Notes: generated by a model not told the origin, from the sequence alone. A stretch of 64,000 bases of DNA from an uncultured delta proteobacterium (GCA_963841435.1 CAWJCS010000005.1:32001-96000); one strand, 5' to 3'; shown: positions 3,061 to 57,559, counted from the first letter of the stretch. Numbers and translations are program-made.

Positions 3061-3196
3061 GGGGCCCCCGACCTATGTCCCTTCCGGCGACGCGAAGCAA
3101 GTCGCGGGCGGATCGCGAAGAGCCGCGACGCCGCGCGGGATTGTGGCCCGCACATTGACCGCGGACCTTAGCCGGGTTCTCCTGGGGGTCCGAGCA

Positions 3197-4078
3197 ATGA
3201 GCTCCGACACGCTGTTTCCGGAGCGGCGGACGCGCATCTCCTTCGCGTCGGTGCTGCCGAGCGGACCCGACCGGCCATGCCTGGTCGTCATCGCGGGCCC
3301 GGAGCTCGGACGGCGCGTGGAGCTCGCTGCCGAAACCGTTGACATCGGCCGCGGCGAGCAGTGTGCGCTCACCATCAACAGCGATCTGGTGAGCCGTCAC
3401 CACGCGACCGTCGTCCGCACGGGCGAGCACCACGCGATCCGCGACGAGAACAGCACCAACGGCACGTTCGTCAACGACCAGCGCGTTGACGGCTCGCTCG
3501 ACCTCGAAGACGGCGATCAGATCAAGATCGGGCGCACCGTGCTCAAGTACACGAGAAGCTTGCTCGAGGTCGGCTACCTGGAGCACGTCATGGGGCTGGC
3601 AACGCACGACGCGCTCACGGGCATATTCAACAAGCGGCGCTTCGACGAGGCCTTCCCCGCGGAGGCAAAGCGGGCCGCCAGCGGCAAGCGGCCCCTCAGC
3701 CTCGTCGTGTTCGACATCGACTTCTTCAAGCGCATCAACGACACGCGCGGCCACTCCGCTGGCGACGCCGTGCTGCGCGAGCTCACGGGCGTCGCGAAGG
3801 CGTGCCTGAACGACACCGACCTTCTGGCTCGCGTCGGCGGCGAGGAGTTTGCGGTTTTGCTCCCCGAGCCGCTCGAGAGCGCTCGTGCAAAATCCGAAAG
3901 GTTGCGCGCCGCCGTCGAGGCGCACGATTTTCGCTGGGACGGAGAGCGCGTGCCGATCACCATCAGCGTGGGCGTCGCGGAGCTCGGTACCGACGAGGGG
4001 CCGGAGGCGCTCTACGTGCGCACGGACACCCTGCTCTACCAGTCCAAGCACGGCGGAAGAAACCAGGTCAGCGGTTAG
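3197..4078 (+). CDS. FHA-domain diguanylate cyclase (FHA-GGDEF)
   Basis: FHA motifs IGR, VSRHHA, STNGTFVN; GGDEF domain DALTG, DIDFFKRIND, GGEEF. ATG 3197 chosen because the longer ORF overlaps dapA. Confidence 0.9.
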   Translation: MSSDTLFPERRTRISFASVLPSGPDRPCLVVIAGPELGRRVELAAETVDIGRGEQCALTINSDLVSRHHATVVRTGEHHAIRDENSTNGTFVNDQRVDGSLDLEDGDQIKIGRTVLKYTRSLLEVGYLEHVMGLATHDALTGIFNKRRFDEAFPAEAKRAASGKRPLSLVVFDIDFFKRINDTRGHSAGDAVLRELTGVAKACLNDTDLLARVGGEEFAVLLPEPLESARAKSERLRAAVEAHDFRWDGERVPITISVGVAELGTDEGPEALYVRTDTLLYQSKHGGRNQVSG

Positions 4079-4130
4079 GACACGCGTGGCACCTGCCGCA
4101 CCGGACGGCAGCGGCTATATTCCGACGCCC

Positions 4131-6059: not shown

Positions 6060-6071
6060 CTGCGCCGCCGG

Positions 6072-6093
6072 AGGGCCCTAGCTGGCCCTTTTT
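6072..6093 (+). terminator. Probable intrinsic terminator
   Basis: AGGGCC-ctagct-GGCCCT stem followed by TTTT, 12 nt after the kinase stop. Confidence 0.5.
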
Positions 6094-6177
6094 GAACGAT
6101 TCCACCATGATCAGAAGCCTCTGGGCCGGGAATGTACGTGGACCCAGGATGAAAACCTCCCCGAAGGAGTTCCGTTG

Positions 6178-8731: not shown

Positions 8732-8775
8732 GCCACCCCACGCAAGCTACGACCGCGACATTCGGAACAAGCACC

Positions 8776-25636: not shown

Positions 25637-26701
25637 ATGGTGGTCTTCTTCCTTTTGGCGACCATGGTTCCGAGACGAAAAGGCGGGGGGCGACGCCGTT
25701 CCACCTGCGCATCGCTGCTCTTTTGCGCGAGCGTCGCGTGCGGCTTCGCGCCCGCGCAGACGGCGCGGGCGGATCCGACGGCTGACCGCGCCGACGGCGC
25801 GCCGTGGCACATCAAGAGCGATTCGGCGTGCCCCGAGGGGGCACGCGTCGAGGCGGCGCTCTGGCCGATCCTCGGTGTGTCGAGCGACACGGCGCTCGGC
25901 GAGTCAATCGAGCTGACGCACGAGGGCAGTGGACTTGCCGTGCGGATGCGCTCGCGCGAAGGGGCGCCGCTCGGCGAGCGCGTGCTGCCGCTCGGCGAGG
26001 ACTGCGAGGAGCTTGCGCGCGCCGCAGCCGTCGTGCTCGCGAGCTGGCTCACGGATGCACATCCGGAGTTTCTCGCGCCCCCGCCGCCGCCTCCGGCGCC
26101 GGCACCCGAGCCGCTGGAGCCCGCGCCGCCGCGCGTCCTGCCCATCGCGAAGATGACGGCGCGCGGCGAGGTCACGCCCGGGCCGGGAGCGGGCCTCTAC
26201 GTCGGGCTCGGCGGCGGCGCAGCGTTGCTCGGCGCACCCCCGGCCGCGCTCGGGACGCTCCTCGCCGGCTACGGTCCTTCGTCGAGCGGCCTCGGTCTCG
26301 AAGCGAGCGTTGGTACGACCACGATGCGTTCGAAGCCGCTCGATGCGGGTCACGTCCACTACACGCGCTTTCCGTTCGCGGTTTGCGCGTCGCTGCGCTT
26401 CGCGGCAGGCCGTGCTCGGGCAGAGCTTCTCGCCGGGGCGGCCGTCGCGTGGCTGAGGCTGTCGGGCGACGGTTTCGCGCCGGACCGATCGCAGAGTGAC
26501 CGAGCCTTCGCAGCGCTCGCGGGGGCGCGCCTTTCGGGGCGATTCGGGGCGCTCGAACCCTTCGCCGAGCTCCGACCCCTTCTGTGGCTGACGGGCGCCA
26601 CGGCGTACGTCGACACACCCGAGGACGGGGTCGCGCTACCCCGCGGGGAGCTTTTCGCGCTCGCCGGCGTGGTCTACCGCCCGCCTCTCGGCGTACGCTG
26701 A
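25637..26701 (+). CDS. ECF-cassette protein: signal peptide, periplasmic alpha/beta domain, Pro-rich linker, small OM beta-barrel (start may be 25664)
   Basis: ARA| signal site, CP...DCEELARAAAVVLA, PPPPP linker, alternating amphipathic strands ending LAGVVY. Confidence 0.65.
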   Translation: MVVFFLLATMVPRRKGGGRRRSTCASLLFCASVACGFAPAQTARADPTADRADGAPWHIKSDSACPEGARVEAALWPILGVSSDTALGESIELTHEGSGLAVRMRSREGAPLGERVLPLGEDCEELARAAAVVLASWLTDAHPEFLAPPPPPPAPAPEPLEPAPPRVLPIAKMTARGEVTPGPGAGLYVGLGGGAALLGAPPAALGTLLAGYGPSSSGLGLEASVGTTTMRSKPLDAGHVHYTRFPFAVCASLRFAAGRARAELLAGAAVAWLRLSGDGFAPDRSQSDRAFAALAGARLSGRFGALEPFAELRPLLWLTGATAYVDTPEDGVALPRGELFALAGVVYRPPLGVR

Positions 26702-26742
26702 AAGGTTCGCAGTCCTCACCGCACCAATCAGCGATGCACGAA

Positions 26743-28005
26743 ATGGCTCGCTCGCTCCCTGGTCTTGGCTGGTCGCTCCTCGGGGCGTCGCTCGTCCTAC
26801 TCTCCTGCGGCGGCCGCTACGACGTCGGGGACAAGGGCGACGGCGGCACGGGAGGCATGGAAGCCGGCGCCGGCGGCTCCGACGCGAACGGCGGCTCGAA
26901 GGCCACCGGTGGCGGCGCCGGCAACGCCGCCGGTGGGAGCGGCGGCGAAACGGCGGGCAGCTCCGGCGAGACGGGCGGCCGGGGCGGCACCTCGAGCTCC
27001 ACGGGGGGCTCGGGCATCGGTGGCGGCACGGGCGGCGACACGGGCGGCACGGGAACGAGTGGCAGCGCAGGGGCTCCGATGACGGGCGGCGCGGCGGGCA
27101 TGCCAACCCCCACGACGTGCGGCGTCGAGCAGGCTTCCCTCGAGTACGGCGAGCTCGCCGCGCCCGACGAAGTCTACCGCCGCATCAGCCGCCTCCTCTA
27201 CGACGAGGAGCGCGACCCGCCCGCCGACTTACCCGAGGTGACGACGCCGGAGCTCGCGAGCACCCTGTTGGTAAACGAGCTCGAGGCGATCCGCTCGGTC
27301 AGTACGCCACCGGACGGGCTCGCTCGGTTCATGCAGGGCTATCTCGCGGCGGAGGGAGAGGACCCGGCCCTCGGCGAGCGCTGGGGGCGCTTGTTGGCCG
27401 AGGAAAATTCCATGCTCTGGTCGCTCTTCACGTCGCCCGCGAGCGAACCCGATGAGTTCGGGCTGTTCTCCGACGTGGCGCGGCTCCGTCCGGGGATCTC
27501 CGGGCGGGGCACCGTTCTTTCCAACTCCCTTTTCTGTACGGGAGTTCCGGCGCCGCCCGTCAACATCGCGCCGATCGTGCCCGGCCCGGACCAAACTCGG
27601 CGCGAGGCGCTCGAAGAAGACGTGGCCAGCCCCACGTGCGCCGGGTGCCATGCCCTCACCGATCCACTCGGCTATGCCCTCGAGATCCTCGCGCCCGAGA
27701 CGGCCGAGCTTCGCAGCACCGACAACGGGCAGCCGATCGACGCCTCCGGCAGGTACAGCTCGGTGGGCGGCAGCTACTTCGTCTTCCAGGACATCCGCCA
27801 GCTGTCGGGCGAGCTTTCCACGTCCTGCGAGGTGGGCGCGTGCTTCGCGAGCCAGCTCTTTTCCTACGCTCTCGCCGCGGGGAACGGCGGCGACTACGGC
27901 CAGGAGGAGCTCGACCAAGTGCTGTTCGCCTTCGGCAGCGGCAATGCGTTCCGCCTCGAATCGCTGCTACTCGCCATCGTCGAGTCACCCTCCTTCCTCC
28001 GTTGA
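26743..28005 (+). CDS. Gly-linker lipoprotein with DUF1588 (PSCyt2-like, CxxCH) and DUF1585-like C-terminus
   Basis: Lipobox LLSC; RG...LFC..VPAPP, TRRE, CAGCH..TDPLGYALE, IDASG, CFASQLFSYAL; clearly similar to the C-terminal half of 48277..50100. Confidence 0.8.
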   Translation: MARSLPGLGWSLLGASLVLLSCGGRYDVGDKGDGGTGGMEAGAGGSDANGGSKATGGGAGNAAGGSGGETAGSSGETGGRGGTSSSTGGSGIGGGTGGDTGGTGTSGSAGAPMTGGAAGMPTPTTCGVEQASLEYGELAAPDEVYRRISRLLYDEERDPPADLPEVTTPELASTLLVNELEAIRSVSTPPDGLARFMQGYLAAEGEDPALGERWGRLLAEENSMLWSLFTSPASEPDEFGLFSDVARLRPGISGRGTVLSNSLFCTGVPAPPVNIAPIVPGPDQTRREALEEDVASPTCAGCHALTDPLGYALEILAPETAELRSTDNGQPIDASGRYSSVGGSYFVFQDIRQLSGELSTSCEVGACFASQLFSYALAAGNGGDYGQEELDQVLFAFGSGNAFRLESLLLAIVESPSFLR

Positions 28006-28031
28006 GAACGGCGGCGGGGTATGCTCGACGC

Positions 28032-28622
28032 GTGCGGGAGATCGATCTCGAGGCGGTGCCTGTCCCGAGTCAACACGAGCGGGACACCGCGACTTCCGCA
28101 GCGCTCTCGCTCGACGCCGTCTACCGCGCGCACGCGGCGCTCGTCTCGCGCTGGATCGAGCGGCTCGATCCGCAAGGTGACGCCGAGGATCTGCTGCACG
28201 ACGTGTTCATGGTCGTCCAGCGGCGTCTGCCGGAGTTCCGTGGGGACGCAGCGATCACGACGTTCCTCTACGCCATCACCTTGCGCGTCGTCACGGGAGC
28301 CCGCCGCAAGCGCCGTCTCCGAAGCGTGCTCTTCGCGGCGCTCTCGCCCCTGCTACGCGAAGCAGAGAAGGATCCGCGCACTCCGGAGCGCTCCGTGGCG
28401 AGCGACCGCACCCGGGCCCTGCTCTACGAGCTACTCGACGAGCTCGGCGAAAGGGATCGAACCTTGCTGATCCTTTTCGAGCTCGAGGAGCTGCCGGGAC
28501 GCGAGATCGCGAGCTTATTGGGCATGCCGGAAAAGAACCTGTGGGCCGCTCTGCACCGCGCGCGACAGCGGCTGCGCCGCGCGTACGTCGCGCGCTACGG
28601 CGAGGAGGGCGGCGAGCCGTGA
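28032..28622 (+). CDS. ECF RNA polymerase sigma factor
   Basis: Region 2 DAEDLLHDVF...FRGDA...FLYAI; region 4 LFELEELPGREIASLLG...LHRARQRL; GTG start 6 nt after TATGCT. Confidence 0.88.
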   Translation: MREIDLEAVPVPSQHERDTATSAALSLDAVYRAHAALVSRWIERLDPQGDAEDLLHDVFMVVQRRLPEFRGDAAITTFLYAITLRVVTGARRKRRLRSVLFAALSPLLREAEKDPRTPERSVASDRTRALLYELLDELGERDRTLLILFELEELPGREIASLLGMPEKNLWAALHRARQRLRRAYVARYGEEGGEP

Positions 28623-46873: not shown

Positions 46874-48280
46874 TCAGAGGATGCCGGCGAGCGGCCCGGA
46901 GTTCGGGTTGCGGTCGCCGACGCCGTCCGTCTCGAGACCCATGGCCTGACAGATCGAGACGAGGAGCTTCGCGTGAGGCTCGTTGTTGAAGCTGAGGAAG
47001 CGACCGGGAACGATGAGGCCGCGCGCGCCGCCGGCGAGCACGAGATTCACGGGGCTCATGCGATGGTTGGTCTGGCCCATCTCGCGACCCCAAACGACGA
47101 GCGTGTTGTCGAGCAGCGTACCGTTGCCCTCCTGCACGCCGTCGAGCGCGGCGAGCAACGCGGCGAATTGCGTCGCGTACCAGGTGTCGATGGCGGCAAG
47201 CTCGGTGCGGTTGTCGCCGTCGAGGTGCGAAACGGTGTGATGACCCTGCGACGAGCCCGCCCAGCTGTGAACGATGGTGCTAAAGCCCCGGCTGAGCTGC
47301 ACGCTCGCGACGCGCGTGAGGTCGCAGGCGAAGGCGTGCGTCACGATGTCCATCATCGCCGAGGTCTCGGCGGGGAAGGTGGCGCTGTTCTCGCGCGAGT
47401 TCGACGCGGCCGCCGCCGGTGCCGTCGTGGGCACGGTGCAGCCGACGGTGGTGGGCGTCGAGCCGATGCGCTGCTCGAGCGCGCGCAGCCCCGCGAGATG
47501 CGCGTCGATCTTCACGTACTCCTCGGAGCCGACGCGGCCGCGCAGGCGCTCCACCTGCGTCATGAGCACGTCGAGCTGAGCCCGCCGCCGCGCGGCCGCG
47601 GCGTCGGTCATCTGCGGCGTCTGGTCGATGGGCGTGCCGAACAGGCGGTTGAAGGCCGCCTGCGGGTTGGTCTCCGGGTGAAGCGGCTGGTTTTCGCCCT
47701 TGTAAATCATCCTGTGCTTGCTGTCGGGCTGCAGGCACTGCACGCCGAGCTCGAGCGTGCGATAGGGCGTCTCCTGGGCCGGGTCGTCAACCGTGCGGGC
47801 GTAGGGTGCCTCGGGTCCGGTGGCGAGCGCGATCATCTGATCGATCGACGGGCCGCTGCCCCAACCCGTGCGGTTGCCGTTGCCGCCGTCGAAGTTGGCG
47901 TCGGCGGTCGGGCCGTTGAGCGTGGCGCCGCTCCACAGGCCGGACATGCCGAACGCGTGCTCCTGACCAGCGCCCCCCGCGCTCATCTTCAGCCCCCAGG
48001 GCACGATGATCTTCGCTTGGTGCGGCGCGAGCGGCGTGTGCAGCGAGCCCAGCGTGAAGGACGTTTCGCTGCCGGTCGGCTTCCAGTCAACGGCTGCGCC
48101 GCCATCATCGATCGAGGCAGTCCCGTCGGGGCTGTAGAAGAGGAGCAGGCGCTTCGGAAACACGAGCTCCTGACCGCTCGCGTTGAGCAGGGGCAAAAAT
48201 GGCGAGAGCGCGGCGCTCGCCCCGAGCGTCTTCAAGAGGTTGCGACGCGAGAGGCCGGGACCAGTTCTTCTGAATGTCAT
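46874..48280 (-). CDS. DUF1552 family protein with Tat signal
   Basis: SRRNLLK twin-arginine motif; PKRLL, SIDQMIA, P.AAFNRLF, AFACDLTRV, HH..SH, EGNGTLLDNT. Confidence 0.85.
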   Translation of the reverse strand: MTFRRTGPGLSRRNLLKTLGASAALSPFLPLLNASGQELVFPKRLLLFYSPDGTASIDDGGAAVDWKPTGSETSFTLGSLHTPLAPHQAKIIVPWGLKMSAGGAGQEHAFGMSGLWSGATLNGPTADANFDGGNGNRTGWGSGPSIDQMIALATGPEAPYARTVDDPAQETPYRTLELGVQCLQPDSKHRMIYKGENQPLHPETNPQAAFNRLFGTPIDQTPQMTDAAAARRRAQLDVLMTQVERLRGRVGSEEYVKIDAHLAGLRALEQRIGSTPTTVGCTVPTTAPAAAASNSRENSATFPAETSAMMDIVTHAFACDLTRVASVQLSRGFSTIVHSWAGSSQGHHTVSHLDGDNRTELAAIDTWYATQFAALLAALDGVQEGNGTLLDNTLVVWGREMGQTNHRMSPVNLVLAGGARGLIVPGRFLSFNNEPHAKLLVSICQAMGLETDGVGDRNPNSGPLAGIL

Positions 48281-50100
48281 GGTGCCACCGCCGTGAGACG
48301 AACGTTGCGGAATGCGTCACTTTTCACGATCGCCGCGAGGAGCGAGCGAACGTTGTTGCCCGACGCCGCGAAGGTTTCGTGGATCGCCTGCATGCTGCAG
48401 GCGTCGTCGGCCGACTCCATGCGACCGAGCGCGAAGCGGAACCACTGATTGGCCATGCAGTCGGCGACCGTGCGGCTCGCGGCGAGCTTCTGGCCGAGCT
48501 CGATGGCACCCACGAACCCACCGTCGAGCTCCGGGGCCCCGTCGAGGATCTCGCCGGACGCATCGACGACCATGCCATTTTCCGTGGCCCGGTAGGCGCC
48601 GATGGCGTCGTAGTTCTCGAAGGCGAGCCCGATCGGGTCGATGAGCACGTGGCAGCCGCCACAGACCGGGTCCGCCTCGTGCTGCTCGAAACGCTCGCGC
48701 GTCGTCGTCGCGGGCGTGGGGGCGGGCGGCGTCGTGTTGACGTTCAAGGGCGGCGGATCGAGCGGCTGGCAGAGCATGTTCTCGCGCACCATGATGCCGC
48801 GGTGGACGGGCGAGGTTTGATCGCGATGCGCATGCGCCGTGAGCACGGACGCCTGCGTGAGGATGCCGGAGCGCTCGCCGGGGTTCAGGGCCACCTGCGT
48901 GCCCGGCACGAAGCCCGCCGGCTGGGTAACGCCATAGAGCGCGAAGAGCGGCCCCTCGGGGAACGAGAACGGTGCCGTGAAGAGCGTGCTCATGAGGCCG
49001 TCGCCGCGGCGCACGACGTAGTCGGTGAACGTCGCCGTCTCCTTGGCCATGGCGTCGGCGAGGGTCGGGTTGAAGCTCGGGAACAGCGCCGCGTCCTTGT
49101 CGAGGCCGACGAGCTCCCCGATCCCGAGCCACTGCAGGTGAAACTCGGGGATGGCGTCGCCGGCCTTCGCGTCCGTGAGCATGCGGTCGACCTCGGACGT
49201 GAGCACGGCATCGTTGACGAGCGTGCCGTCGGCGGCCCGGTCGAAGAGCTCCGCATCCGGCATGGTGTCCCAAAGGAAGTACGAGAGCCGCGAGGCGAGC
49301 TCGTACGGCGAGACGGCGCCGGGCGCTGTGCTCGGGGCCATCGATGACCCGCGATCGACGTGATAGAGAAAGAACGGCGACTCGAGCATCGTCGCGACGA
49401 CCAGCTCGAATGCCGTTTCGGGGGTGCCGCGCGCGAGCTCACCCGTGTAGAGCGCGAGGTACTCATCGTGCTCGGCTTGCTCCAGGGGGCGGCGATGCGC
49501 CCGCTCGCCGAAATGGTCGATGAAGGAAGCGGCGCACGTCGTCCCGGTATCCGCGGCGAGATCACAGCCGGCGATCTCGTTCATGCGGGGCATAGCCTGC
49601 TGGGCGAGCGCTGCGGCCACTTCGTCGTGCTGTTGCACCAGCAGATCGGTGATGGGCGCGATGGCGTTGGAGTAGAAGGGACCGATGCGTTCGTCGGGTG
49701 AGATGGCGTCGGCCGGGGTGCCGGTAATCCCGAGGAGGTCACGCACGGTGTGGTTGAATTGGGAGCGCGACATGCGCCGAAGCCGCGTCCGCCCCACGGA
49801 GAGCCCGCCGCCAGGCTGGCACAGCGTGTCGACGCTACCGCCGGAGCCTGCCGTCACGCCGGTGCCGCCCGTCGAGGAGCCGCCCGTCGAAATGCTGCCG
49901 CCGGTGCTCCCGCCCGTGCCACCCGCTGCCATGGCGCCGCCCGTGCCCTGCTGGGAGCCGCCGCTGCCGCCGCCTGGGGCCGTCGCCCCGCTGCCTCCGG
50001 AAGCGGCCGGGACCGCGCTCGAGCCCGGACTTTCGATCGAGCCCTGGCAGCCGAGAGCCCATGCGACGGTCGGGATCAGGAGCGCGTGGAGCTTGGTCAC
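48277..50100 (-). CDS. DUF1587/1595/1592/1588/1585 lipoprotein with c-type heme motif
   Basis: Lipobox ALGC, Gly linker, LRRMSR.QFNHTVRDLLG, SPFFLY, ELASRLSYFLW..MPD, TSPVHRG, CGGCH..IDPIG; ATGA overlap with DUF1552. Confidence 0.88.
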   Translation of the reverse strand: MTKLHALLIPTVAWALGCQGSIESPGSSAVPAASGGSGATAPGGGSGGSQQGTGGAMAAGGTGGSTGGSISTGGSSTGGTGVTAGSGGSVDTLCQPGGGLSVGRTRLRRMSRSQFNHTVRDLLGITGTPADAISPDERIGPFYSNAIAPITDLLVQQHDEVAAALAQQAMPRMNEIAGCDLAADTGTTCAASFIDHFGERAHRRPLEQAEHDEYLALYTGELARGTPETAFELVVATMLESPFFLYHVDRGSSMAPSTAPGAVSPYELASRLSYFLWDTMPDAELFDRAADGTLVNDAVLTSEVDRMLTDAKAGDAIPEFHLQWLGIGELVGLDKDAALFPSFNPTLADAMAKETATFTDYVVRRGDGLMSTLFTAPFSFPEGPLFALYGVTQPAGFVPGTQVALNPGERSGILTQASVLTAHAHRDQTSPVHRGIMVRENMLCQPLDPPPLNVNTTPPAPTPATTTRERFEQHEADPVCGGCHVLIDPIGLAFENYDAIGAYRATENGMVVDASGEILDGAPELDGGFVGAIELGQKLAASRTVADCMANQWFRFALGRMESADDACSMQAIHETFAASGNNVRSLLAAIVKSDAFRNVRLTAVAP

Positions 50101-50108
50101 GCCCCTTG

Positions 50109-50136
50109 ATGGGGCCCGCGATGCGATGAGGGTCGG
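50109..50136 (-). promoter_or_regulatory. Candidate ECF-sigma promoter of the DUF1592-DUF1552 operon
   Basis: Minus strand CCGACCC-N16-CCCAT, 8 nt before GTG 50100; same motif precedes the sigma gene at 51423. Confidence 0.6.
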
Positions 50137-51352
50137 AACATTCGGGCTTCGAAATGGTGATTCTGTCCGTGCGGAACAATTCCGACGAGGGAGCCTCGCG
50201 CGGCTCGTCGGCGCGGCGGTCGGCACGCTGCTCGTCGCGGGGCACGTTGCGGCGCAGCCCCGCGCGGCGCAGCCCGCAAACGCGGGGCCGAGTAGCGCCG
50301 CGACCGGCGACGCGAGCACGAGCGGCGCCACGCCGGAGATGCGCACGCTCCTCGTCGTGCGGCTCGAGGGCGCGCTCGGCGAAGCTCGCGAGGCGGCGCT
50401 CGAAAGCCTGCTGCGCTCCGAGCTTTCGTCCGCCGGCGTCGAGGTGTCGCTCGCGCGCTCGGACGAGCCGAGGCTCGCCTGGACCGCGCGCGCGCGACGC
50501 GATCGGCGCGTGCTCGTGCTCGGAATCCTCGATGCCCGCGACGAGGGCGCCTGGCGGCTCTACGTCATCGACGCCGCTCGCGGCCGGGCCATCGTGCGTC
50601 GGCTGCCGGGCGGGCTCGCAGCCGACGCAGCGGCGCTCGAGGGCGTGTCGGCGATCCTGAGCTCGGCCGTAGCCGCGGTGCGCGAGGGGCTCGAGGTCGC
50701 CTCGGCGCCCGTCGAGGAGGTGGTCGGCGGCTTGCCCGCCGAGAAGCGCGCCGCGTCCCCGCCTCCTCCGGCGCGCGCGCCGCTCGATGACGAGCGCGTG
50801 GAGACGGAGCCGTCTTCGACAGGCGCGCTCTTTCGTCCGTTCGCTGCGGCGCTCGCGCGCGGGTCGACGCTCGCGTCGCGCGTCGTGCCGGGCGGTGCGG
50901 TGCGCCTCGGGCTCTCGCACGGTCGCCTGCGTCTTTCGCTCGACGCGTCGTACGACACGCGCGCCACCGTGACGACTCCGCTCGGCGAGTTCGACCTCGA
51001 GCGCTGGCTTCTCGGCTTGAAGGCGGGCTACGTCCTTCTGCTCGGCGAGCTCTCGCTCGAGCCGCGCCTCGGCACGGGTGCCGAGCTCCTGAGCCGCCGC
51101 GGCACGATGCCGGAGGCCGGCGTCAGCGCGAGCGGCGATCGCTCCTACGCGCGCTTCACGGCGTTCGCCGGCGTGTGGCTCGGCGTGCCGCTCGGCGCCG
51201 CCGTCGCCCTGGAGCTCGGCGCCGAAGCCGCCTTCGCCCCGCGCAAGGTCCGGTTCGTCACCGAAAGCGGGGCGGAGCTCGACTCGCTGTCGCGCTTCAC
51301 CGGCGTGGCGGCGGCGGGCCTGGTGTTCGGCGCGAGCGGGTACCGGCGCTAG
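50126..51352 (+). CDS. ECF-cassette protein: signal, periplasmic alpha/beta domain, Pro-rich linker, small OM beta-barrel (start uncertain)
   Basis: Signal-like RRGSLARLVGAAVGTLLVAGHVAA|Q; SPPPP linker; amphipathic strands ending AAAGLVF; same layout as 25637..26701. Confidence 0.65.
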   Translation: MRVGTFGLRNGDSVRAEQFRRGSLARLVGAAVGTLLVAGHVAAQPRAAQPANAGPSSAATGDASTSGATPEMRTLLVVRLEGALGEAREAALESLLRSELSSAGVEVSLARSDEPRLAWTARARRDRRVLVLGILDARDEGAWRLYVIDAARGRAIVRRLPGGLAADAAALEGVSAILSSAVAAVREGLEVASAPVEEVVGGLPAEKRAASPPPPARAPLDDERVETEPSSTGALFRPFAAALARGSTLASRVVPGGAVRLGLSHGRLRLSLDASYDTRATVTTPLGEFDLERWLLGLKAGYVLLLGELSLEPRLGTGAELLSRRGTMPEAGVSASGDRSYARFTAFAGVWLGVPLGAAVALELGAEAAFAPRKVRFVTESGAELDSLSRFTGVAAAGLVFGASGYRR

Positions 51353-51422
51353 GAGCGCCCCCTTCGGAAAGCGGGTGCGGCACCCGGAAACCCGAGGAAT
51401 GCAGCAGGGCTTGCGCTTTGTG

Positions 51423-51450
51423 CCGACCCGGGAAAGGCCCTGGGGCCCAT
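51423..51450 (+). promoter_or_regulatory. Candidate autoregulatory ECF-sigma promoter
   Basis: CCGACCC(51423-29)-N16-CCCAT(51446-50), 12 nt before the sigma GTG. Confidence 0.6.
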
Positions 51451-51462
51451 AATCAGAGAAGC

Positions 51463-52044
51463 GTGGACGTGCCGTTCCAGAGCCCCCCCGACGGTGACCG
51501 GGACCTCGACCTCATGGCGAGCGTTGCACGGCGGGAGCCCGCCGCGGAGCGAGCGATGGTCGAGCGGCTCTCGGGCCGGGTGCGCCGCCTTGCGCGCCTG
51601 CTCGCCGGCACGACGGTGGATGCCGACGACGCCGCGCAGATGTCGCTGCTCGAGATCCTGCGCTCCGCATCCGGTTTTCGTGTCGCGATGAGTCTCGAGC
51701 GTTGGGCGGACCGCATCACGGTCCGCACGACGCGCCGGCTCGTCCGCCGGGAGGTCGAGCACCGGGGGCTTCTGGCGCGCTGGGTGCCACCGGGGGCCCT
51801 GCCCTGGGGCCGCCGCGAGGCTCCGAGCCCGGAGCGGCTCGGTCTCGAGGCGTTTCTCGAGCGCCTCTCCCCCGAGCGGCGCGAGGCGCTCGTGATGCGC
51901 CACACGCTCGAGTACAGCGTGGAGGAGATCGCCGAGCTCACAGGGGCGCCAATCGGCACCGTGAAGGACCGCCTGGTGTCGGCGCGCAAGGAGCTCCGGC
52001 GCGCCCTCGAGCGCGAGGCCGCGCGCGGCGGGAGGCGGTCATGA
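51463..52044 (+). CDS. ECF RNA polymerase sigma factor
   Basis: DADDAAQ..LLEILRS..GFR....ERWADRI; region 4 EYSVEEIAELTGAPIGTVKDRL. Confidence 0.88.
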   Translation: MDVPFQSPPDGDRDLDLMASVARREPAAERAMVERLSGRVRRLARLLAGTTVDADDAAQMSLLEILRSASGFRVAMSLERWADRITVRTTRRLVRREVEHRGLLARWVPPGALPWGRREAPSPERLGLEAFLERLSPERREALVMRHTLEYSVEEIAELTGAPIGTVKDRLVSARKELRRALEREAARGGRRS

Positions 52045-53594
52045 CGGACCGGCGCAGCTGGGAGGCGTTGCAGAATCGCTGGGCGGCGGGCGAGACCCTG
52101 TCGGCGGAAGAGGAGCGCGAGCGCCTGTCTTACGCCGACTTCGACGCGCTCGCGCGCCGAGAGCTCGAGCTCTTGGCCGAGCTCTCGGGAGAGCTGAGCG
52201 CCCCCGAAGGCGAGCCGCAAAACCTCGCGCTCGCGCTCGCCGGAGCGCGGGGCGTGCGGCTGCGCGTGCTCGGTCCCGAAGGCGATTCGAAGCCCGCACA
52301 AGGGCGCAGGCGGGGCCGGCGCGCGGCGCTCGTCGGCGCGGGAGTCGCCGTCGCGGCGGCGGCAGCGACCGTCGTGTGGGTCTCTCGGCCACGACCCAGC
52401 GAGCCGGTCGCCGTCTCGGTGCCGCCGCGAGCGCCCGTTGTCGCGCCGGCACCGCGGAGCCTCGCCCGCTCCGAGCTCGTCTTCGCGAGCGGCAGCGTGA
52501 CGCTCGACGGAAAGCCGATGACGCTCGGCAGCGGGACGCTGCACGCGGGCGCCGAGCTTCGTACGGCCGAGGGCCGCGCCTGCCTCACCATCGATCCGAG
52601 CATCGACGTGTGCCTCGACGCGCAGAGCGCCGTCAGGCTCGAGTCGCTCGACCAGACGGCGCTCACGGTGCGCGTCACGGCGGGGACCGCGGTCGCCGCG
52701 CTCGCCCCGCGCAAGAGGGGACGTTTCGCGCTCGTCGGAGGCGACGTCGTGGCGACCGCTCACGGCACGGTGTTCGCGATTTCCCGGGAACCTTCGGGCA
52801 GCGCCACGCGGGTGACCGTCATGGAGGGGGAGGTCGCCGTGCAGCGCGGGCGCGGGCAGGTCTCGCTCGTCGAAGCGCATTCGGGCGTCGAGCTCGCGGG
52901 CGATCGCAGCGGCCCCCCGACGATCGTGGGTCGCGGCGAGGAGGCTCGCCTCTACGCGCTGCTCTCGCCCCGCGAGCTCTGGCAGGGTGGCAACGTGGGC
53001 GTGCTCGAAGTGGTCCAGGCGAGCCCCGGCGACCGCGTGCTCGTCGATCAGCTCGGGCCGTTCGAGATGCCGCTCGGCGTGTACGTCGGCAGCGGGCGAC
53101 ATCGGATCACGCTGCGCAGCGCCGAGAGCCCCGAGCGCGGGCTCGACGTCGACGTCGAGGCGGGCGGCACCCGGCACCTGACGCGCGCCGAGCTCGACGG
53201 CGGCGCGAGCACGACGCCGGCCTCGGCCTCGGCGCTGCTCGACCAAGCGCGCAAGCAGCTCGCCGCCGGCAACCGCCGCGCGGCCCTCGCGGCGTATCGC
53301 GAGCTCGGGCGCGCCTTCCCGAAGAGCTCGGAAGCAATCACGGTGCTCGTCACGCTCGGCAAGCTCGAGCTCGAGCTCGGCGCGCCCGAACGCGCCCTCG
53401 GCGCCTTCGACGCCTACATCGCCCACGGAGGTCCACTGCTTCCCGAGGCCTTTTCGGGCCGCGTCCGCGCGCTCCGGGCGCTCGGTCGCCGCACCGAGGA
53501 GCGGCGTGCCATCGAGCAATACCTCGGGCGCTACCCGACAGGGTTCGAAGCGCCTACGCTCCGGCAACGCCTCGCCGCGCTCTCTTCCGGATGA
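52041..53594 (+). CDS. Putative anti-sigma: TM, FecR-like domain, PEGA-like segment, TPR domain
   Basis: ATGA overlap; TM ALVGAGVAVAAAAATVVWV; AHGTVF...VTVMEGEVAV FecR motif; YRELGRAFPKS and YLGRYPTG TPR-like ends. Confidence 0.8.
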   Translation: MTDRRSWEALQNRWAAGETLSAEEERERLSYADFDALARRELELLAELSGELSAPEGEPQNLALALAGARGVRLRVLGPEGDSKPAQGRRRGRRAALVGAGVAVAAAAATVVWVSRPRPSEPVAVSVPPRAPVVAPAPRSLARSELVFASGSVTLDGKPMTLGSGTLHAGAELRTAEGRACLTIDPSIDVCLDAQSAVRLESLDQTALTVRVTAGTAVAALAPRKRGRFALVGGDVVATAHGTVFAISREPSGSATRVTVMEGEVAVQRGRGQVSLVEAHSGVELAGDRSGPPTIVGRGEEARLYALLSPRELWQGGNVGVLEVVQASPGDRVLVDQLGPFEMPLGVYVGSGRHRITLRSAESPERGLDVDVEAGGTRHLTRAELDGGASTTPASASALLDQARKQLAAGNRRAALAAYRELGRAFPKSSEAITVLVTLGKLELELGAPERALGAFDAYIAHGGPLLPEAFSGRVRALRALGRRTEERRAIEQYLGRYPTGFEAPTLRQRLAALSSG

Positions 53595-55198
53595 CACCGC
53601 CGCGCCAAGCGCTGCTGGCCGCGCTCCTCGGTGCGAGCCTCGCTGCGTGCGGACCGCTAAAAGACGAGGTCTTCGCCTCCCGCGTCCTCGATCATACCGG
53701 GGAGCCGCTCGAGCTCGTGGAGGGCGCCGGCACCGTCGAGATCCCGCTCCTGCTCGCGACGGCGCCGGCCGAGACCGTGTCCGCGCGCTACCATTTCGCG
53801 GAGCTCGAGGCGCAGTCGACCTGCCAGTCGCCCGATTTCTCGTCCCCCGACGGTCGCGTCGTGTGGCCCGCGGGTCAACGGCGGGCCACGGTGAGCCTCC
53901 TCGTGCGCGACGACAATCTGCCGGAGCTCGACGAAGCGCTGAGCCTCGTGCTCGACGATTTCTCGGGCGCTGGCCTGCACGGCAGCGACACCGTACGGCT
54001 CGTGATCCTCGACGACGACCGGACGGGCATCATAGACGCGCGTGCGGAAAGCGGCCTCTTGCCCGGCGTCGCGAGCGATCAGGCCGGGGCGCTCGGCGAC
54101 GCGCTCGCTCGCGCCGCCGCGCTCGGACGCGGCGTCGTGTGGGTCGCGCCCGGCGACTACGAGGTCTCGGGCGTGACGCTGCCCGTCGGCGTGACACTTT
54201 CGGGGCGCGGCGCGACGCTGCACCGTCCGGCGTCGTCGCCGGGCACGACGGTCGGCATCGGCGCAAGCTACCGGGACGACATCGACTCGCCCGCGACGCT
54301 GATCGAAGGCCTGACGCTCGACGGCCGGCGCGACGAGCAGGGGCCCTTCGAGAACGACCAGCTCACCGACGCCCACCTCGTTTCGCTCCGCGGCGACCCC
54401 GAGCGCGCGGGGCAACTTCGCGTGACGCTCGAATCGCTCGGGCTCGAATCGAGCACGGCGAGCGGTGTCTTTCTGGGCCCGGGCGTCAACGCCACGCTCT
54501 GCCGCCTGCACGGCGCGGATCTCTGGCGCAACGTCGTGACGCTGCGCGGCGGGCACACGCGCGTCGATGCCCGCGAGCTAGACGCGAGCGCGAGTCTCGG
54601 TACCACGGGCCTGTGGTTCGACGGCCAGCCCGCGGGCTTCGGCGGCACGCACCGCATCAACGTCACGGTGCGCGACACGCAGCTCGCGAGCGGCGACCTC
54701 GAAATCGAAGCCTACGACGGCTCGACGATCGAGCTCGACCGCTTCAGCATGGCGCGCGGCCCGCTGAGGCTCCAGGCCCCGGACGCGACCGTGACCATCA
54801 CCGACTCGGTGCTGCAAGCGGGCCTACCGAGCGCCGTGCACAACTTCTTCGGCTTACCGCACGACGTGACGCTCACGCGCACGACGCTCGTCGCCACCGA
54901 AACCGACGACGGCGGCCTCGAAACGGTCGACGCCGACCGAACGCTCGCCGTCTCCACGGTTCGCTGGGAGCTCATGTCGAACATGGAGCTGCCGCCGCTT
55001 CTCCCGGCCGCGTCGCCGCCGCATCGAATCGTGTTCGATCAATGCACGTTCCTGCGTGGCCCCGACGTCGAAACGACGGACACCGTGTACGGCGTCGCGA
55101 CGGAGGGCAGAGGCGGATCGGTCGTCGTGCGCGCCCCCGTGCTCGATGCAAACGTCGAGGCACTGTCGCCGAGCTGTGACGGCTGCACGCTCGAGTGA
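53591..55198 (+). CDS. Lipoprotein with Calx-beta-like domain and pectin-lyase-like beta-helix
   Basis: Lipobox LAAC; DF....G.V.WPAGQ....V.LLVRDD..PELDE.L.L.L...VILDDD Calx-beta pattern; VWVAPGDY, GVTLSGRGA and IEGLTLDG beta-helix start. Confidence 0.7.
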   Translation: MTPPRQALLAALLGASLAACGPLKDEVFASRVLDHTGEPLELVEGAGTVEIPLLLATAPAETVSARYHFAELEAQSTCQSPDFSSPDGRVVWPAGQRRATVSLLVRDDNLPELDEALSLVLDDFSGAGLHGSDTVRLVILDDDRTGIIDARAESGLLPGVASDQAGALGDALARAAALGRGVVWVAPGDYEVSGVTLPVGVTLSGRGATLHRPASSPGTTVGIGASYRDDIDSPATLIEGLTLDGRRDEQGPFENDQLTDAHLVSLRGDPERAGQLRVTLESLGLESSTASGVFLGPGVNATLCRLHGADLWRNVVTLRGGHTRVDARELDASASLGTTGLWFDGQPAGFGGTHRINVTVRDTQLASGDLEIEAYDGSTIELDRFSMARGPLRLQAPDATVTITDSVLQAGLPSAVHNFFGLPHDVTLTRTTLVATETDDGGLETVDADRTLAVSTVRWELMSNMELPPLLPAASPPHRIVFDQCTFLRGPDVETTDTVYGVATEGRGGSVVVRAPVLDANVEALSPSCDGCTLE

Positions 55199-55730: not shown

Positions 55731-57458
55731 TCACGCCGCGTCGGCTTCGAGCTGGTTGAAGAGCGGTGCGAGCTCGGGGCGGCGGCGCAGCGGCGCGCAG
55801 AAGCGCGTTGCGATCTCGAGGAGCTTCGTTTCGAGCTCGTCGGCGCGTTTGCCGAGCTCGCCGATCGACTTCTCGCGTGCAGCGGTCTCCTTTTCGAGGG
55901 TTTCCTCGTGATTGGCGAGCGCGGCACGGAGCGCCTCGATCTGATATTCGATGTCGGTCACTTCGCTTCTTCGCGCGGCGACGCGCGCATCGGCCTGGCG
56001 CAAGTCCTCGCGCTGAATCACCCAGCCGTCGACGATGTCCGCCGCGGCTCGGTACGCCTGCGCAAGCTCCGGGTACGGCTCCTGGAATGCCGAGCGGCCC
56101 TCCCAGCGCATGATCTCCGCGTGCGCGCGCAGGAGAAGCGCCCGTGGTCCCTCGAGCGCCTGGCGCACGTTCGCCGCGGCCGCGGTCGCCGTCTTGAGCT
56201 CGTCACGGGCCTTGCTAAGGTCGATGCCGAGCGCGTCAACGGCATGACCGAAGCGCTGGCGTGAGTCGCGGCCGCGCGCCTCGATCGACTCGAGCGCACG
56301 CTGTTCGTCGACGGCGCGCCCGCGGATCTCGCTGATCTTTTGCACGAGCCCCTTCACTTCCGCGAGCGCGCTCACGAGATCCTCCGGGCGCTGAGCGCCG
56401 AACGCGGCATCGAGCATTTGGTCGAAGACGGCCGTGCGCTTGACCCAGCGGTCGATGGCAACGGGCGGCAAGGTCTTCGCGGGGCCGCGCGAGCTTTCGC
56501 CTACCTCGTCGATCTCGGCCGGGACGCGAACGCCGAGCGCGCCGGCGATGCGCAAGAGGTCGTTGTGGACGCGATGCGCGTCGACGGGCCGATCTTTGGG
56601 GTCCTTCGCCAAGAGATCGCTCACGAGGCGATCGAGCTCGGCGGGCACACTCGGGTCCCGCTGCCGCAGCGGAATGGGCTTCTCCTTGAGATGCTTGACG
56701 AAGAAAGTCGCGACGTCGTCCGCGTCGAACGGCAGCTGCCCGCAGAGCATCTCGTAGAGCATGACGCCGAGCGCGTAGAGGTCCGCGGACGGCCCGGCGT
56801 CGATCGACGTGATGCGCTCTGGGGCCATGTACTGGGGCGTACCGAACACCTCGCCGGCGCCCGTGAGCCGTACGTCCTGCATCGACCGGGCGATGCCGAA
56901 ATCGAGGAGCTTCACGAAGTCGCTACCGTCCTCGGCCTCGGCGAGGAACACGTTCTCGGGCTTCAAGTCGCGGTGGATCACCTCGAGGTCGTGGGCGCGA
57001 GCGAGCGCGCGCGCGATCTGAATCGTGATGGGGAGCGTGCGCTCGAGCGGGACCTTGCCGCGCACGACCGCGTCGGCGAGCGTTTCGCCGTCGAGCAGCT
57101 CCATGACGAGAAATAGGCTGCCGTCGGGCAGCTCGCCCTGATCGAAGATCTCGATGATGTTGGGGTGGCCGAGCTTCTGTGCTGCCTTGGCCTCGCGACG
57201 GAAGCGCTCGCGGATCACCACGTTCTTGGCGAGCGCCGCGTTCATGATCTTGACGGCGCACGGCCGGTCGACGAGCCGGTGCCTGGCGGCGTACACGGTC
57301 GCCATCCCGCCTTCGCCGATGGCGGCCTCTAGCTGGTATCTTCCCGCCACGGTGAGCCCGATCCGCGGGTCCTGCACCGCTTCGAGCGGCGAGCCACACA
57401 GAAAGCAGGCCGCCGTGTCGTCGGGGAAGCTCAGCTTGCAGCGCTGGCAAGCCTTCAT
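55731..57458 (-). CDS. Cytoplasmic Ser/Thr kinase with N-terminal zinc ribbon and C-terminal coiled coil
   Basis: CQRC...[35 protein letters not shown]; heptad-rich C-terminus, no TM. Confidence 0.92.
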
Positions 57459-57559
57459 GGCAAGGGATGCATCATCGCGCGAGGACCGCGCAACTGCCAC
57501 GGCGACGGCACACGCGCGATATTGTTCTTTGATTTCGAGCGGTTGAAGAACTCAACTTT

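What the first reader, a model, noticed from the sequence alone, without database searches (positions are those of the whole stretch)
46874..55198. Candidate ECF regulon read from DNA: the same bipartite promoter precedes the ECF sigma and the divergent DUF1592-DUF1552 operon
Seen: CCGACCC-N16-CCCAT occurs at 51423-51450 (+), 12 nt before the sigma GTG, and at 50136-50109 (-), 8 nt before the DUF1592 GTG. Spacing is identical and the context is shared (GGG(G/C)CCCAT(A/C)A). Known: ECF sigmas usually autoregulate through a -35/-10 pair about 16 nt apart, and the DUF1592 (CxxCH) plus Tat-exported DUF1552 pair has no established function. Inference: this sigma/FecR-TPR anti-sigma/OM-barrel/Calx-beta-beta-helix cassette senses an outside cue and switches on the heme-lipoprotein/DUF1552 pair, from near-leaderless transcripts. 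This would give both a promoter consensus and a regulatory link for an orphan system.
Basis: partly seen in the sequence, partly recalled or inferred. Interest (0 to 1): 0.8.

Follow-up and report, generated by a model that had tools for sequence, protein, structure and literature searches.

The report
ECF sigma promoter shared with DUF1592-DUF1552 operon
A small alternative sigma factor in an uncultured soil-type myxobacterium most likely switches on itself and a neighbouring pair of secreted proteins of unknown function through one shared promoter motif, which gives this orphan protein pair its first regulatory handle.

Summary
CCGACCC-N16-CCCAT sits 12 nt before the sigma GTG and 8 nt before the DUF1592 GTG. 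The extended form occurs only at these two places in the 7.78 Mb genome.

The main reading is supported by comparative evidence.
- 14 of 18 orthologous sigma genes, from at least five genera of Polyangiaceae MAGs, carry the same bipartite box (tt-CCGACC(S)-N15/16-(S)CCAT). The spacer sequence is free but its length is fixed.
- 4 of 5 true orthologs of this DUF1592-DUF1552 pair carry it 8-10 nt before their start codon. They lie in three gene arrangements: divergent, downstream of the cassette, and on another contig.
- 0 of 28 paralog-type DUF1592 loci carry it, and none of 19 paralogous ECF genes has this variant.
- A GH53 galactanase lipoprotein is a further candidate target. It has the box in 3 of 5 sigma-positive genomes and in 0 of 13 genomes where the sigma was not found.

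The sigma fits the described group ECF267 (FecR+TPR anti-sigma, nearby kinase, Polyangiaceae), for which the published classification reports no conserved promoter.

Nothing is shown experimentally, and no RNA data were available. This scan has noted similar ECF-DUF1592/DUF1552 links on other DNA before.

The parts
46874..48280 (-). DUF1552 (HXXSHH) protein, 468 aa, with a twin-arginine signal. It is the second gene of the target operon and its start overlaps the DUF1592 stop.
   Evidence: Pfam PF07586, E 6e-62. The N-terminus MTFRRTGPGLSRRNLLK is seen. The AlphaFold model (pLDDT 78, pTM 0.79) gives weak sulfatase / alkaline-phosphatase-fold matches (Foldseek E 2.5e-5, TM only 0.33-0.38).
48277..50100 (-). 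DUF1592-family haem lipoprotein, 607 aa, first gene of the target operon. It has a lipobox (LGC), a Gly/Ser linker, PSD3-PSD5-PSD4-PSCyt3-PSD2 domains and a CGGCH motif.
   Evidence: Pfam domains; translation.
50109..50136 (-). Promoter-like box of the DUF1592 operon: CCGACCC (-35), 16-nt spacer, CCCAT (-10), 8 nt before the GTG.
   Evidence: It is conserved before the orthologs in G052, G095 and G225, and tabulated.
50126..51352 (+). 408-aa exported protein with an N-terminal alpha/beta domain and a C-terminal OmpA/OmpX-like outer-membrane beta-barrel. It is the conserved first gene of the cassette but lies upstream of the sigma promoter.
   Evidence: No Pfam family above threshold. AlphaFold model. 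Foldseek matches to OmpA, NspA, Ail and OmpX, E 7e-8 to 2e-6. Syntenic in 12 cassette loci by tblastn, and read from an ORF in G225.
51423..51450 (+). Promoter-like box of the sigma operon: CCGACCC (-35), 16-nt spacer, CCCAT (-10), 12 nt before the GTG, in the 110-nt gap after the barrel gene.
   Evidence: Conserved before 14 of 18 sigma orthologs.
51463..52044 (+). ECF (group IV) sigma factor, 193 aa.
   Evidence: Pfam Sigma70_r2 and Sigma70_r4_2. TIGR02937 scores 54.5 bits against a cut-off of 42.9.
52041..53594 (+). Single-pass anti-sigma factor, 517 aa: short cytoplasmic N-terminus, one hydrophobic helix near residues 95-114, then a periplasmic FecR domain and TPR repeats. Its start overlaps the sigma stop (ATGA).
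   Evidence: Pfam FecR E 4.7e-7, plus TPR_16/14/6. Translation.
53591..55198 (+). 535-aa lipoprotein (lipobox LAAC) with a Calx-beta-like domain and a probable pectate-lyase-type beta-helix. Its start overlaps the anti-sigma stop.
   Evidence: Translation. Pfam Calx-beta E 3.5e-4 and Pect-lyase_RHGA_epim E 0.024, both below the curated cut-offs. Atlas feature hits to GH28 / pectate-lyase-like / Calx-beta clusters score 0.82-0.86, which is a lead only. It is the best-conserved cassette protein.
55731..57500 (-). Ser/Thr protein kinase, convergent with the cassette. This is context only; kinases are typical of ECF267 neighbourhoods.
   Evidence: Pfam Pkinase E 1e-52. Kinase genes also lie near the cassette in L035, L115, L141, L145 and L146.

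Best explanation
The two boxes are promoters read by RNA polymerase carrying the ECF sigma factor encoded at 51463-52044. At rest, the single-pass FecR+TPR anti-sigma factor holds the sigma at the membrane. An envelope or outside cue releases it. The cue is probably sensed with the co-transcribed Calx-beta/beta-helix lipoprotein and perhaps the OmpA-like barrel protein. I guess it is a pectic plant-wall polysaccharide. The free sigma then transcribes (i) its own operon (sigma, anti-sigma, lipoprotein: positive feedback) and (ii) the DUF1592 haem lipoprotein / Tat-exported DUF1552 operon. In some species it also transcribes a GH53 galactanase lipoprotein gene. The -10 box ends only 8-10 nt before the DUF1592 start codon in every ortholog, so that mRNA is probably leaderless or nearly so.

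Shown by computation: the motif, its uniqueness in the genome, its conservation and specificity, the gene link, and the domain content.

Inferred: that the sigma binds the motif, autoregulation, the release mechanism, the nature of the cue, and leaderless initiation.
For: (1) Uniqueness. There are 2 matches in the window against 0.02 expected. Only these two copies of the extended box occur in 7.78 Mb. Of 21 genome-wide matches to the looser cross-species consensus CCGACCS-N15/16-SCCAT, only one precedes a sigma gene.
(2) Sigma footprint. 18 orthologous sigma genes (44-70% identity) were examined. Ten have CCGACC-N(15-16)-NNCAT. Four have a one- or two-base or one-nucleotide-spacing variant (G010 CCGGCCC, G004 CCGTTCG, G051 CAGACCG, G189:C32 N14). 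The spacers are unrelated in sequence.
(3) Target footprint. The DUF1592/DUF1552 orthologs (DUF1552 64-76% identical) in G052, G095 and G225 carry CCGACCG-N15/16-(CACAT/CCCAT/ACCAT) 8-10 nt before a lipoprotein start codon. In G052 the pair is on a different contig from the sigma. In G095 and G158 it follows the cassette on the same strand. In G225 it is divergent, as here.
(4) Specificity. 0 of 28 paralog-type DUF1592 loci (40-62% identity) have a CCGACC box upstream. Among 39 DUF1592 copies in this genome, only the focal one and one other have the box. 0 of 21 loci L009-L029 (19 ECF paralogs plus two divergent orthologs) have CCGACC...CAT. Seven of them have a related A-rich CC(G/A)CCC-N14-16-SCAC box, as expected if each sigma of the clade reads its own variant.
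(5) Co-occurrence. GH53 orthologs carry the box in 3 of 5 genomes that have the sigma ortholog and in 0 of 13 where it was not found.
(6) Form. The box is asymmetric and bipartite, with fixed spacing and fixed orientation just upstream of start codons. It resembles the ECF32 hrp box GGAACCNA-N13-14-CCACNNA (passage in PMC10384996). ECF32 shares a clade with ECF267 in the published tree (figure legend, PMC7826278).
(7) Operon structure. ATGA overlaps join sigma / anti-sigma and anti-sigma / lipoprotein.
Against: There are no transcription start sites, RNA data or binding data; no sequencing run was listed.

Four of 18 sigma orthologs show no clear box: G012, G158 and G236 show none, and G026 has the -35 only. 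In G158 the DUF1592 ortholog has only CCGACCG-N16-CACGT about 290 nt upstream.

Most genomes with the sigma lack an ortholog of this DUF1592 pair, so the regulon content is not fixed. In G004 a more distant DUF1592 pair (37% identical) follows the cassette without a recognisable box. GH53 lacks the box in two sigma-positive genomes, G005 and G051.

An unrelated ECF in G001 (29% identical) has a very similar box (CCGTCCG-N15-GCCAT), as does a nearby GH43 gene. The motif class is therefore not exclusive to this sigma.

Purine-rich, Shine-Dalgarno-like runs lie between the -10 box and the start codon in some orthologs (for example AGGAGGAG in G052), which sits uneasily with strictly leaderless mRNAs.

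Related genomes are not independent, so the counts overstate the statistics.
Confidence: 0.75

Rival explanations
1. The boxes are ECF-type promoters, but the one before DUF1592 (and GH53) is read by a different ECF sigma with a similar specificity. The adjacency to this sigma would then be incidental.
For: A 29%-identical ECF in G001 and a neighbouring GH43 gene carry aaagttCCG(T/A)CCGgtt-N-(G)CCAT. The G020 GH53 box shares that aaagtt...GGT flavour. The genome encodes dozens of ECF sigmas: 34 tblastn hits.
Against: In this genome only the focal sigma gene is preceded by the consensus. The best G000 relative of the G001 second ECF (45% identical) has a different upstream sequence. The DUF1592 pair is physically linked to this cassette in four genera in two arrangements, and it keeps the box when unlinked in a genome that has the sigma. 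The two G000 boxes share flanks beyond the core, and so do the two G225 boxes, which share the spacer start CTCTCC.
Confidence: 0.1
2. The motif is an operator for a conventional DNA-binding regulator (activator or repressor) that co-regulates the sigma operon and the DUF1592 operon. The true promoters would lie elsewhere.
For: No start sites are known. Shine-Dalgarno-like runs downstream of the 'CAT' in some orthologs would make sense if transcription started further upstream.
Against: The two half-sites are different and non-palindromic. They are separated by 15-16 unconserved bases, always in one orientation, and end 8-21 nt before the start codon. Related ECF paralogs carry related two-box motifs at the same position. 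No regulator gene other than the sigma / anti-sigma travels with the cassette. No sigma-70-like promoter was found in 49800-51700, although that scan is weak in high-GC DNA.
Confidence: 0.08
3. The similarity has no function. It is a chance match or a local sequence duplication in a GC-rich genome.
For: The pattern was chosen after the two sites were seen. GC-rich genomes produce many CCG/CCC words: 2308 copies of CCGACCC were counted.
Against: The full box is found only here in 7.78 Mb. It is conserved with diverged spacers at both genes across genera.
Confidence: 0.02

Closest known systems
ECF sigma group ECF267 (Casas-Pastor et al. 2021, NAR; PMC7826278; main-text passages and supplement passages read)
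   Same: The sigma is followed at +1 by a FecR-like anti-sigma fused to TPR repeats. Ser/Thr kinase genes lie in the neighbourhood. There is no TonB-dependent receptor. The hosts are Polyangiaceae: the paper names Sorangium and Chondromyces, and the relatives here are MAGs titled Polyangiaceae, Sorangium sp. or Polyangiales.
   Different: [quoted passage not shown] Here a clear box is conserved within the orthogroup and candidate targets emerge. Formal assignment with the ECF Hub models could not be run. The conserved OmpA-like barrel gene and the beta-helix lipoprotein are not mentioned in the passages I read.
FecI/FecR/FecA-type cell-surface signalling
   Same: An ECF sigma paired with a single-pass regulator that has a periplasmic FecR domain. 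An outer-membrane protein gene sits beside them, and a nearby transport or enzyme operon is the target.
   Different: No TonB-dependent transducer was found among the 12 ORFs scanned between 43.6 and 57.5 kb. The barrel is a small OmpA/OmpX-like one with an N-terminal periplasmic domain. The anti-sigma has an added TPR domain. The sigma appears autoregulated. The published tree places ECF267 far from the FecI clade.
HrpL (ECF32) hrp-box promoters, GGAACCNA-N13-14-CCACNNA (passage in PMC10384996)
   Same: A bipartite box with -35 ending in ACC and -10 beginning with CCA. The paralogous ECFs of this genus even use ...CCAC.
   Different: The -35 is CCGACC rather than GGAACC, the -10 is CCAT, and the distance between the ACC and the CCA is about two bases longer. 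This is a resemblance only. HrpL has no anti-sigma of this kind.
PSCyt3/PSD-domain protein + DUF1552 gene pairs of Planctomycetota and Verrucomicrobiota (He et al. 2017, mSphere, PMC5615132; passages read)
   Same: The same Pfam domain set, the CxxCH motif and the tight pairing with the unknown partner family. Copy number is high: about 39 DUF1592 and 35 DUF1552 hits in this genome. That paper says nothing is known of their function and suspects a role in carbohydrate use.
   Different: Here one specific pair is tied to a dedicated ECF switch and shares its promoter box. The host is a myxobacterium.

Membership tests
ECF (group IV) sigma-70 factors | [quoted passage not shown] | tested here: met
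   Pfam Sigma70_r2 and Sigma70_r4_2 only. TIGR02937 scores 54.5 bits against a cut-off of 42.9.
ECF (group IV) sigma-70 factors | Cognate anti-sigma encoded next to it and co-transcribed | tested here: met
   A single-pass FecR+TPR protein starts at the sigma stop codon with an ATGA overlap. The order is conserved in all cassette loci examined. Binding itself was not tested.
ECF (group IV) sigma-70 factors | Autoregulation through a bipartite -35/-10 promoter upstream of its own gene | tested here: inconclusive
   The conserved box is present in 14 of 18 orthologs, but no start site or activity data exist.
ECF267 | FecR-like anti-sigma fused to TPR repeats at position +1 | tested here: met
   compared with the description in the PMC7826278 supplement.
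ECF267 | One to three protein kinase genes in the neighbourhood; no FecA-like or TonB-dependent receptor | tested here: met
   A kinase lies at 55731-57500, and there is no TonB receptor among the 12 ORFs scanned. Kinases also lie near the cassette in five other loci.
ECF267 | Assignment by the ECF Hub group/subgroup models, or clustering with the Sorangium/Chondromyces members | not testable with these tools
Only the taxonomy of relatives (Polyangiaceae MAG titles) is consistent.
FecI/FecR/FecA cell-surface signalling | TonB-dependent outer-membrane transducer with an N-terminal signalling domain | tested here: not met
   None was found in the ORFs scanned. The conserved barrel protein is OmpA/OmpX-like.
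FecI/FecR/FecA cell-surface signalling | Periplasmic FecR domain in the sigma regulator | tested here: met
   PF04773, E 4.7e-7, 30.6 bits against a cut-off of 24.
PSCyt3/PSD + DUF1552 pairs | PSD3-PSD5-PSD4-PSCyt3-PSD2 domain set with CxxCH, immediately followed by a DUF1552 gene | tested here: met
   All five Pfam domains score above their cut-offs and DUF1552 has E 6e-62. CGGCH is seen. The genes overlap at 48277-48280.
Formylglycine sulfatases (for DUF1552) | Sulfatase fold with the C/S-x-P-x-R active-site motif | tested here: inconclusive
   The fold matches to sulfatases are weak (TM 0.33-0.38). There are no sequence matches to solved structures. I saw no C/S-x-P-x-R motif when reading the sequence by eye.

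The most novel reading that the evidence does not exclude
The four-gene cassette is an OmpA-like barrel protein, an ECF267-type sigma, a FecR-TPR anti-sigma and a Calx-beta/pectate-lyase-fold lipoprotein. On this reading it is a TonB-independent cell-surface signalling device of Polyangiaceae that detects a pectic plant-wall glycan. It fires leaderless mRNAs for a GH53 galactanase and for a PSCyt3 haem lipoprotein / DUF1552 sulfatase-fold pair. That would place the hugely expanded and so far functionless PSCyt3-DUF1552 family of Planctomycetota, Verrucomicrobiota and Myxococcota in oxidative or hydrolytic processing of complex glycans. It would also give ECF267 its first promoter consensus and regulon.
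Probability: 0.25. Interest if true: 0.75.

Novelty: new variant of a known kind. Interest (0 to 1): 0.55.

Why it matters
DUF1592 (PSCyt3/PSD) and DUF1552 proteins come in dozens of copies per genome in several phyla and have no known function or regulation. A dedicated sigma switch with a defined promoter box gives a direct experimental handle. One can induce the sigma, or delete the anti-sigma, and see what the pair does and on which substrate. The co-regulated GH53 galactanase and the pectate-lyase-like sensor lipoprotein point to plant-wall glycans as the first substrates to try. For ECF biology, the finding supplies a promoter consensus and candidate regulon for a group (ECF267-like) that the reference classification lists as having no conserved promoter. 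It also shows a FecR-type regulator working without a TonB-dependent transducer.

Tried and rejected
- RNA evidence: no RNA or DNA holder was listed for window:48000-53000, so start sites could not be mapped and read laying was not used.
- A third G000 site, C5:646465 (CCGACCG-N16-GCCAT, about 60 nt before the likely ATG of a 36-38%-identical DUF1592 paralog). It looked like a further target, but 0 of 13 orthologous loci of that paralog carry the box, including G052, which has the sigma. I keep it only as a G000-specific candidate.
- Other consensus hits in G000 lie in coding frames or before implausible ORFs.
- The G004 DUF1592 pair downstream of the cassette has no recognisable box in its 250-nt gap.
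- Pattern scan of five sigma-positive genomes: of the 30 loci inspected, most hits are coding. Only the G020 GH53 site was convincing. Of the 68 hits listed, 38 were given no locus; apart from the sigma-gene boxes already seen and one site on the G001 sigma contig, these were not inspected.
- A sigma-70 promoter and terminator scan of 49800-51700 found nothing.
- Sequence searches of solved structures with DUF1592 and DUF1552 gave nothing meaningful.
- Literature: searches for DUF1592/DUF1552 (5 papers held a term and 4 were listed; none of the 4 listed concerns regulation, going by their titles and abstract openings, and only PMC5615132 was opened) and for PSCyt3/HXXSHH/DUF1588/PSD4 (the 15 listed of 386 were noise from the human gene PSD4) found no description of this link. 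ECF267 appears only in PMC7826278. Its supplement was stored cut, and I read passages, not the whole file.
- Earlier notes of this scan: nothing near this place and nothing by sigma sequence.
- The idea that the G001 second ECF has a close ortholog in G000 that could own the GH53 site was rejected. The best G000 hit is 45% identical and has a different upstream sequence.
Full report
**1. Observation**

The window is G000:C5:32001-96000 of a 7.78 Mb, 68.7% GC genome in 6 contigs. CCGACCC-N16-CCCAT is present at 51423-51450 (+) and 50109-50136 (-), exactly as reported. The first copy ends 12 nt before the GTG of an ECF sigma gene. The second ends 8 nt before the GTG of a DUF1592-family gene on the other strand.

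Shuffles of the window give 0.02 matches on average. Genome-wide, the N16 form occurs three times, and the third copy lies inside a polymerase-I-like reading frame. The extended form with shared flanks, GTKCCGACCC-N12-GGGSCCCATMA, occurs only at the two sites. The pattern was read off the two sites themselves, so I put more weight on the cross-species tests below.

**2. Genes**

- On the minus strand, a lipoprotein (48277-50100) carries PSD3, PSD5, PSD4 (DUF1592), PSCyt3 and PSD2 domains and a CGGCH haem motif. It is followed, with overlapping stop and start, by a DUF1552 protein (46874-48280) with a twin-arginine signal.
- On the plus strand, a 408-aa exported protein (50126-51352) has no Pfam family. 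Its model shows an N-terminal alpha/beta domain and a C-terminal barrel whose best fold matches are the 8-stranded OmpA/OmpX/Ail barrels.
- After a 110-nt gap come the ECF sigma (51463-52044), a single-pass anti-sigma with FecR and TPR domains (52041-53594) and a lipoprotein (53591-55198). The lipoprotein has a Calx-beta-like domain and, as a lead only, a pectate-lyase-type beta-helix.
- The last three genes are joined by ATGA overlaps, so they form one operon behind the sigma box.
- A Ser/Thr kinase gene converges on the cassette.

**3. The sigma box is conserved**

The block barrel / sigma / anti-sigma / lipoprotein is syntenic in related genomes of the same genus and of four other genera of the family. 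Their public titles read Polyangiaceae, Sorangium sp., Polyangiales or Myxococcota MAGs.

I examined 18 orthologous sigma genes.
- Ten have CCGACC(N)-N15/16-NNCAT 9-21 nt before the predicted start: G000, G005, G020, G003, G001, G013, G052, G189:C205, G133 and G225.
- Four have close variants: G010 CCGGCCC, G004 CCGTTCG, G051 CAGACCG, and G189:C32 with N14.
- Four show no clear box: G012, G158 and G236 show none, and G026 has the -35 only.

The spacers share no sequence but keep their length, and a T-rich stretch usually precedes the -35 box. This is the signature of a promoter rather than of an inherited repeat.

**4. The DUF1592 box is conserved too, and it follows the gene**

The genome holds about 39 DUF1592 and 35 DUF1552 copies, so orthology had to be judged by identity. 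True orthologs of this pair (DUF1552 64-76% identical, against 57% for the closest paralog inside G000) were found in G052, G095, G225 and G158.

| Genome | Arrangement | Sequence before the start codon |
|---|---|---|
| G000 | Divergent from the cassette | cgaatgttCCGACCC-N16-CCCAT-N8-GTGACCAAG |
| G052 | On another contig than the sigma | cgaatcgttCCGACCG-N16-CACAT-N8-GTGACCAAG |
| G095 | Directly after the cassette lipoprotein, same strand | CCGACCG-N16-CCCAT-N10-ATG |
| G225 (another genus) | Divergent from the cassette, as in G000 | CCGACCG-N15-ACCAT-N9-ATG; its sigma gene has CCGACCA-N15-CCCAT |
| G158 | After the cassette, same strand | Only CCGACCG-N16-CACGT about 290 nt upstream, counted as unclear |

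So 4 of 5 orthologs keep the box, in three arrangements. By contrast, 0 of 28 loci with paralog-type DUF1592 genes (40-62% identity) have a CCGACC box upstream. Inside G000, only the focal gene and one other of the 39 copies do.

**5. Specificity among sigmas**

None of the loci L009-L029 (19 paralogous ECFs of 37-45% identity, plus the two divergent orthologs) has CCGACC...CAT. Seven have a related box, A-rich-CC(G/A)CCC-N14-16-SCAC. This fits a clade of autoregulated ECFs that each read a variant of a common two-box theme.

That theme resembles the hrp box of HrpL (GGAACCNA-N13-14-CCACNNA; passage in PMC10384996). The published ECF tree shows ECF267, ECF268, ECF269, ECF02 and ECF32 as one clade (figure legend in PMC7826278).

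One caveat: an unrelated ECF in G001 (29% identical) and a nearby GH43 gene carry aaagttCCG(T/A)CCGgtt...(G)CCAT. The motif class is therefore not unique to one sigma. In G000, however, the focal sigma is the only sigma gene preceded by the consensus, and the best G000 relative of that second ECF has a different upstream region.

**6. Further candidate targets**

The cross-species consensus CCGACCS-N15/16-SCCAT has 21 matches in G000.

- Besides the two focal sites, one site (C3:649401, minus strand) lies 9 nt before the ATG of a lipoprotein whose downstream part is a GH53 galactanase. It sits just after another DUF1592/DUF1552 pair.
- The GH53 orthologs of G020 and G052 also carry the box before a lipoprotein start.
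- Among 18 GH53 orthologous loci, the box is present in 3 of 5 genomes that have the sigma ortholog: present in G000, G020 and G052; absent in G005 and G051.
- It is present in 0 of 13 genomes where the sigma was not found (one doubtful variant in G002). These genomes are related and some are incomplete, so this is suggestive and not a clean statistic.
- A second DUF1592 paralog in G000 (site C5:646465) has the box, but its orthologs elsewhere do not.

**7. What the parts suggest**

The DUF1552 model (pLDDT 78, pTM 0.79) gives only weak matches to sulfatases and other alkaline-phosphatase-fold enzymes (E 2.5e-5, TM 0.33-0.38). No solved relative is found by sequence. He et al. 2017 (PMC5615132, passages) state that nothing is known about PSCyt-domain genes and their paired unknown genes, and suspect carbohydrate metabolism.

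Two features make a pectic glycan a reasonable guess for the cue: the GH53 candidate target and the pectate-lyase-like sensor lipoprotein. It remains only a guess.

**8. Mechanism proposed**

The anti-sigma sequesters the sigma. A signal from the envelope releases it, probably through the FecR/TPR periplasmic part together with the lipoprotein and perhaps the barrel protein. The holoenzyme then starts at the two boxes.

The DUF1592 start codon lies 8, 8, 10 and 9 nt after the CAT in the four orthologs, so a leaderless or nearly leaderless mRNA is likely. The Shine-Dalgarno-like runs seen in some orthologs are a point against this.

None of these steps has been tested. No sequencing run was listed for this DNA.

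**9. Comparison and novelty**

The system works like a classical autoregulated ECF sigma / anti-sigma switch. It fits the published description of ECF267: Sorangium and Chondromyces hosts, a FecR-like anti-sigma with TPR at +1, kinases nearby and no TonB receptor. [quoted passage not shown] I could not run the ECF Hub models, so membership stays probable, not shown. It fails the FecIRA definition because there is no TonB-dependent transducer.

The link between an ECF sigma and DUF1592/DUF1552 modules has been noted by this scan on other genomes (notes e1-1448365 and e1-2250832; unchecked AI notes). I found no paper on it in the searches.

I rate it a new variant of a known kind. The regulon prediction is well supported, of moderate surprise, and useful as a handle on an orphan protein family.

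Noticed in passing
window 50100-50136: The DUF1592 GTG (50100, minus strand) and the only plausible ATG of the barrel gene (50126, plus strand) are 25 nt apart. The -35 box of the DUF1592 promoter overlaps codons 2-4 of the barrel gene, so the barrel gene's own promoter must lie inside the DUF1592 coding region. In G225 the same two genes are 124 nt apart. How the barrel gene is transcribed here is unexplained.
   Followed up: partly
window 26584-28622: A second, shorter PSCyt3+PSD2 protein (26584-28005) is followed directly by another ECF sigma gene (about 28065-28622). I saw no shared box in the two upstream regions.
   Followed up: partly
G000:C3:647898-649365 (locus L102 3899-5366, minus strand): The GH53 gene with the box seems split between two frames. 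The signal peptide and Gly/Ser linker are in one ORF and the GH53 domain is in an overlapping ORF. This could be a frameshift, an assembly error in the G-rich linker, or a pseudogene.
   Followed up: no
L033 (G001:C395) 4775-9252: Directly after the cassette in G001 lies a second, unrelated ECF sigma (4812-5423). It heads a plus-strand cluster with Cip1-like polysaccharide-lyase-like and esterase genes. A GH43 gene on the opposite strand faces it, and GDSL-lipase and GH115 genes lie beyond. The ECF and the GH43 gene carry aaagttCCG(T/A)CCGgtt...CCAT boxes. This looks like a separate small ECF regulon for hemicellulose or pectin enzymes.
   Followed up: partly
whole genome G000: The DUF1592 and DUF1552 families are greatly expanded: 39 and 35 tblastn hits, mostly as adjacent pairs. 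There are also about 130 Ser/Thr-kinase hits. In relatives, the first look found up to about 190 DUF1592 candidates per genome.
   Followed up: no
L036 (G004:C47) 3173-6234: In G004 a more distant DUF1592/DUF1552 pair (37% and 30% identical) follows the cassette on the same strand, without a recognisable box in the 250-nt gap. It may be co-transcribed, or a different pair may have been captured.
   Followed up: partly
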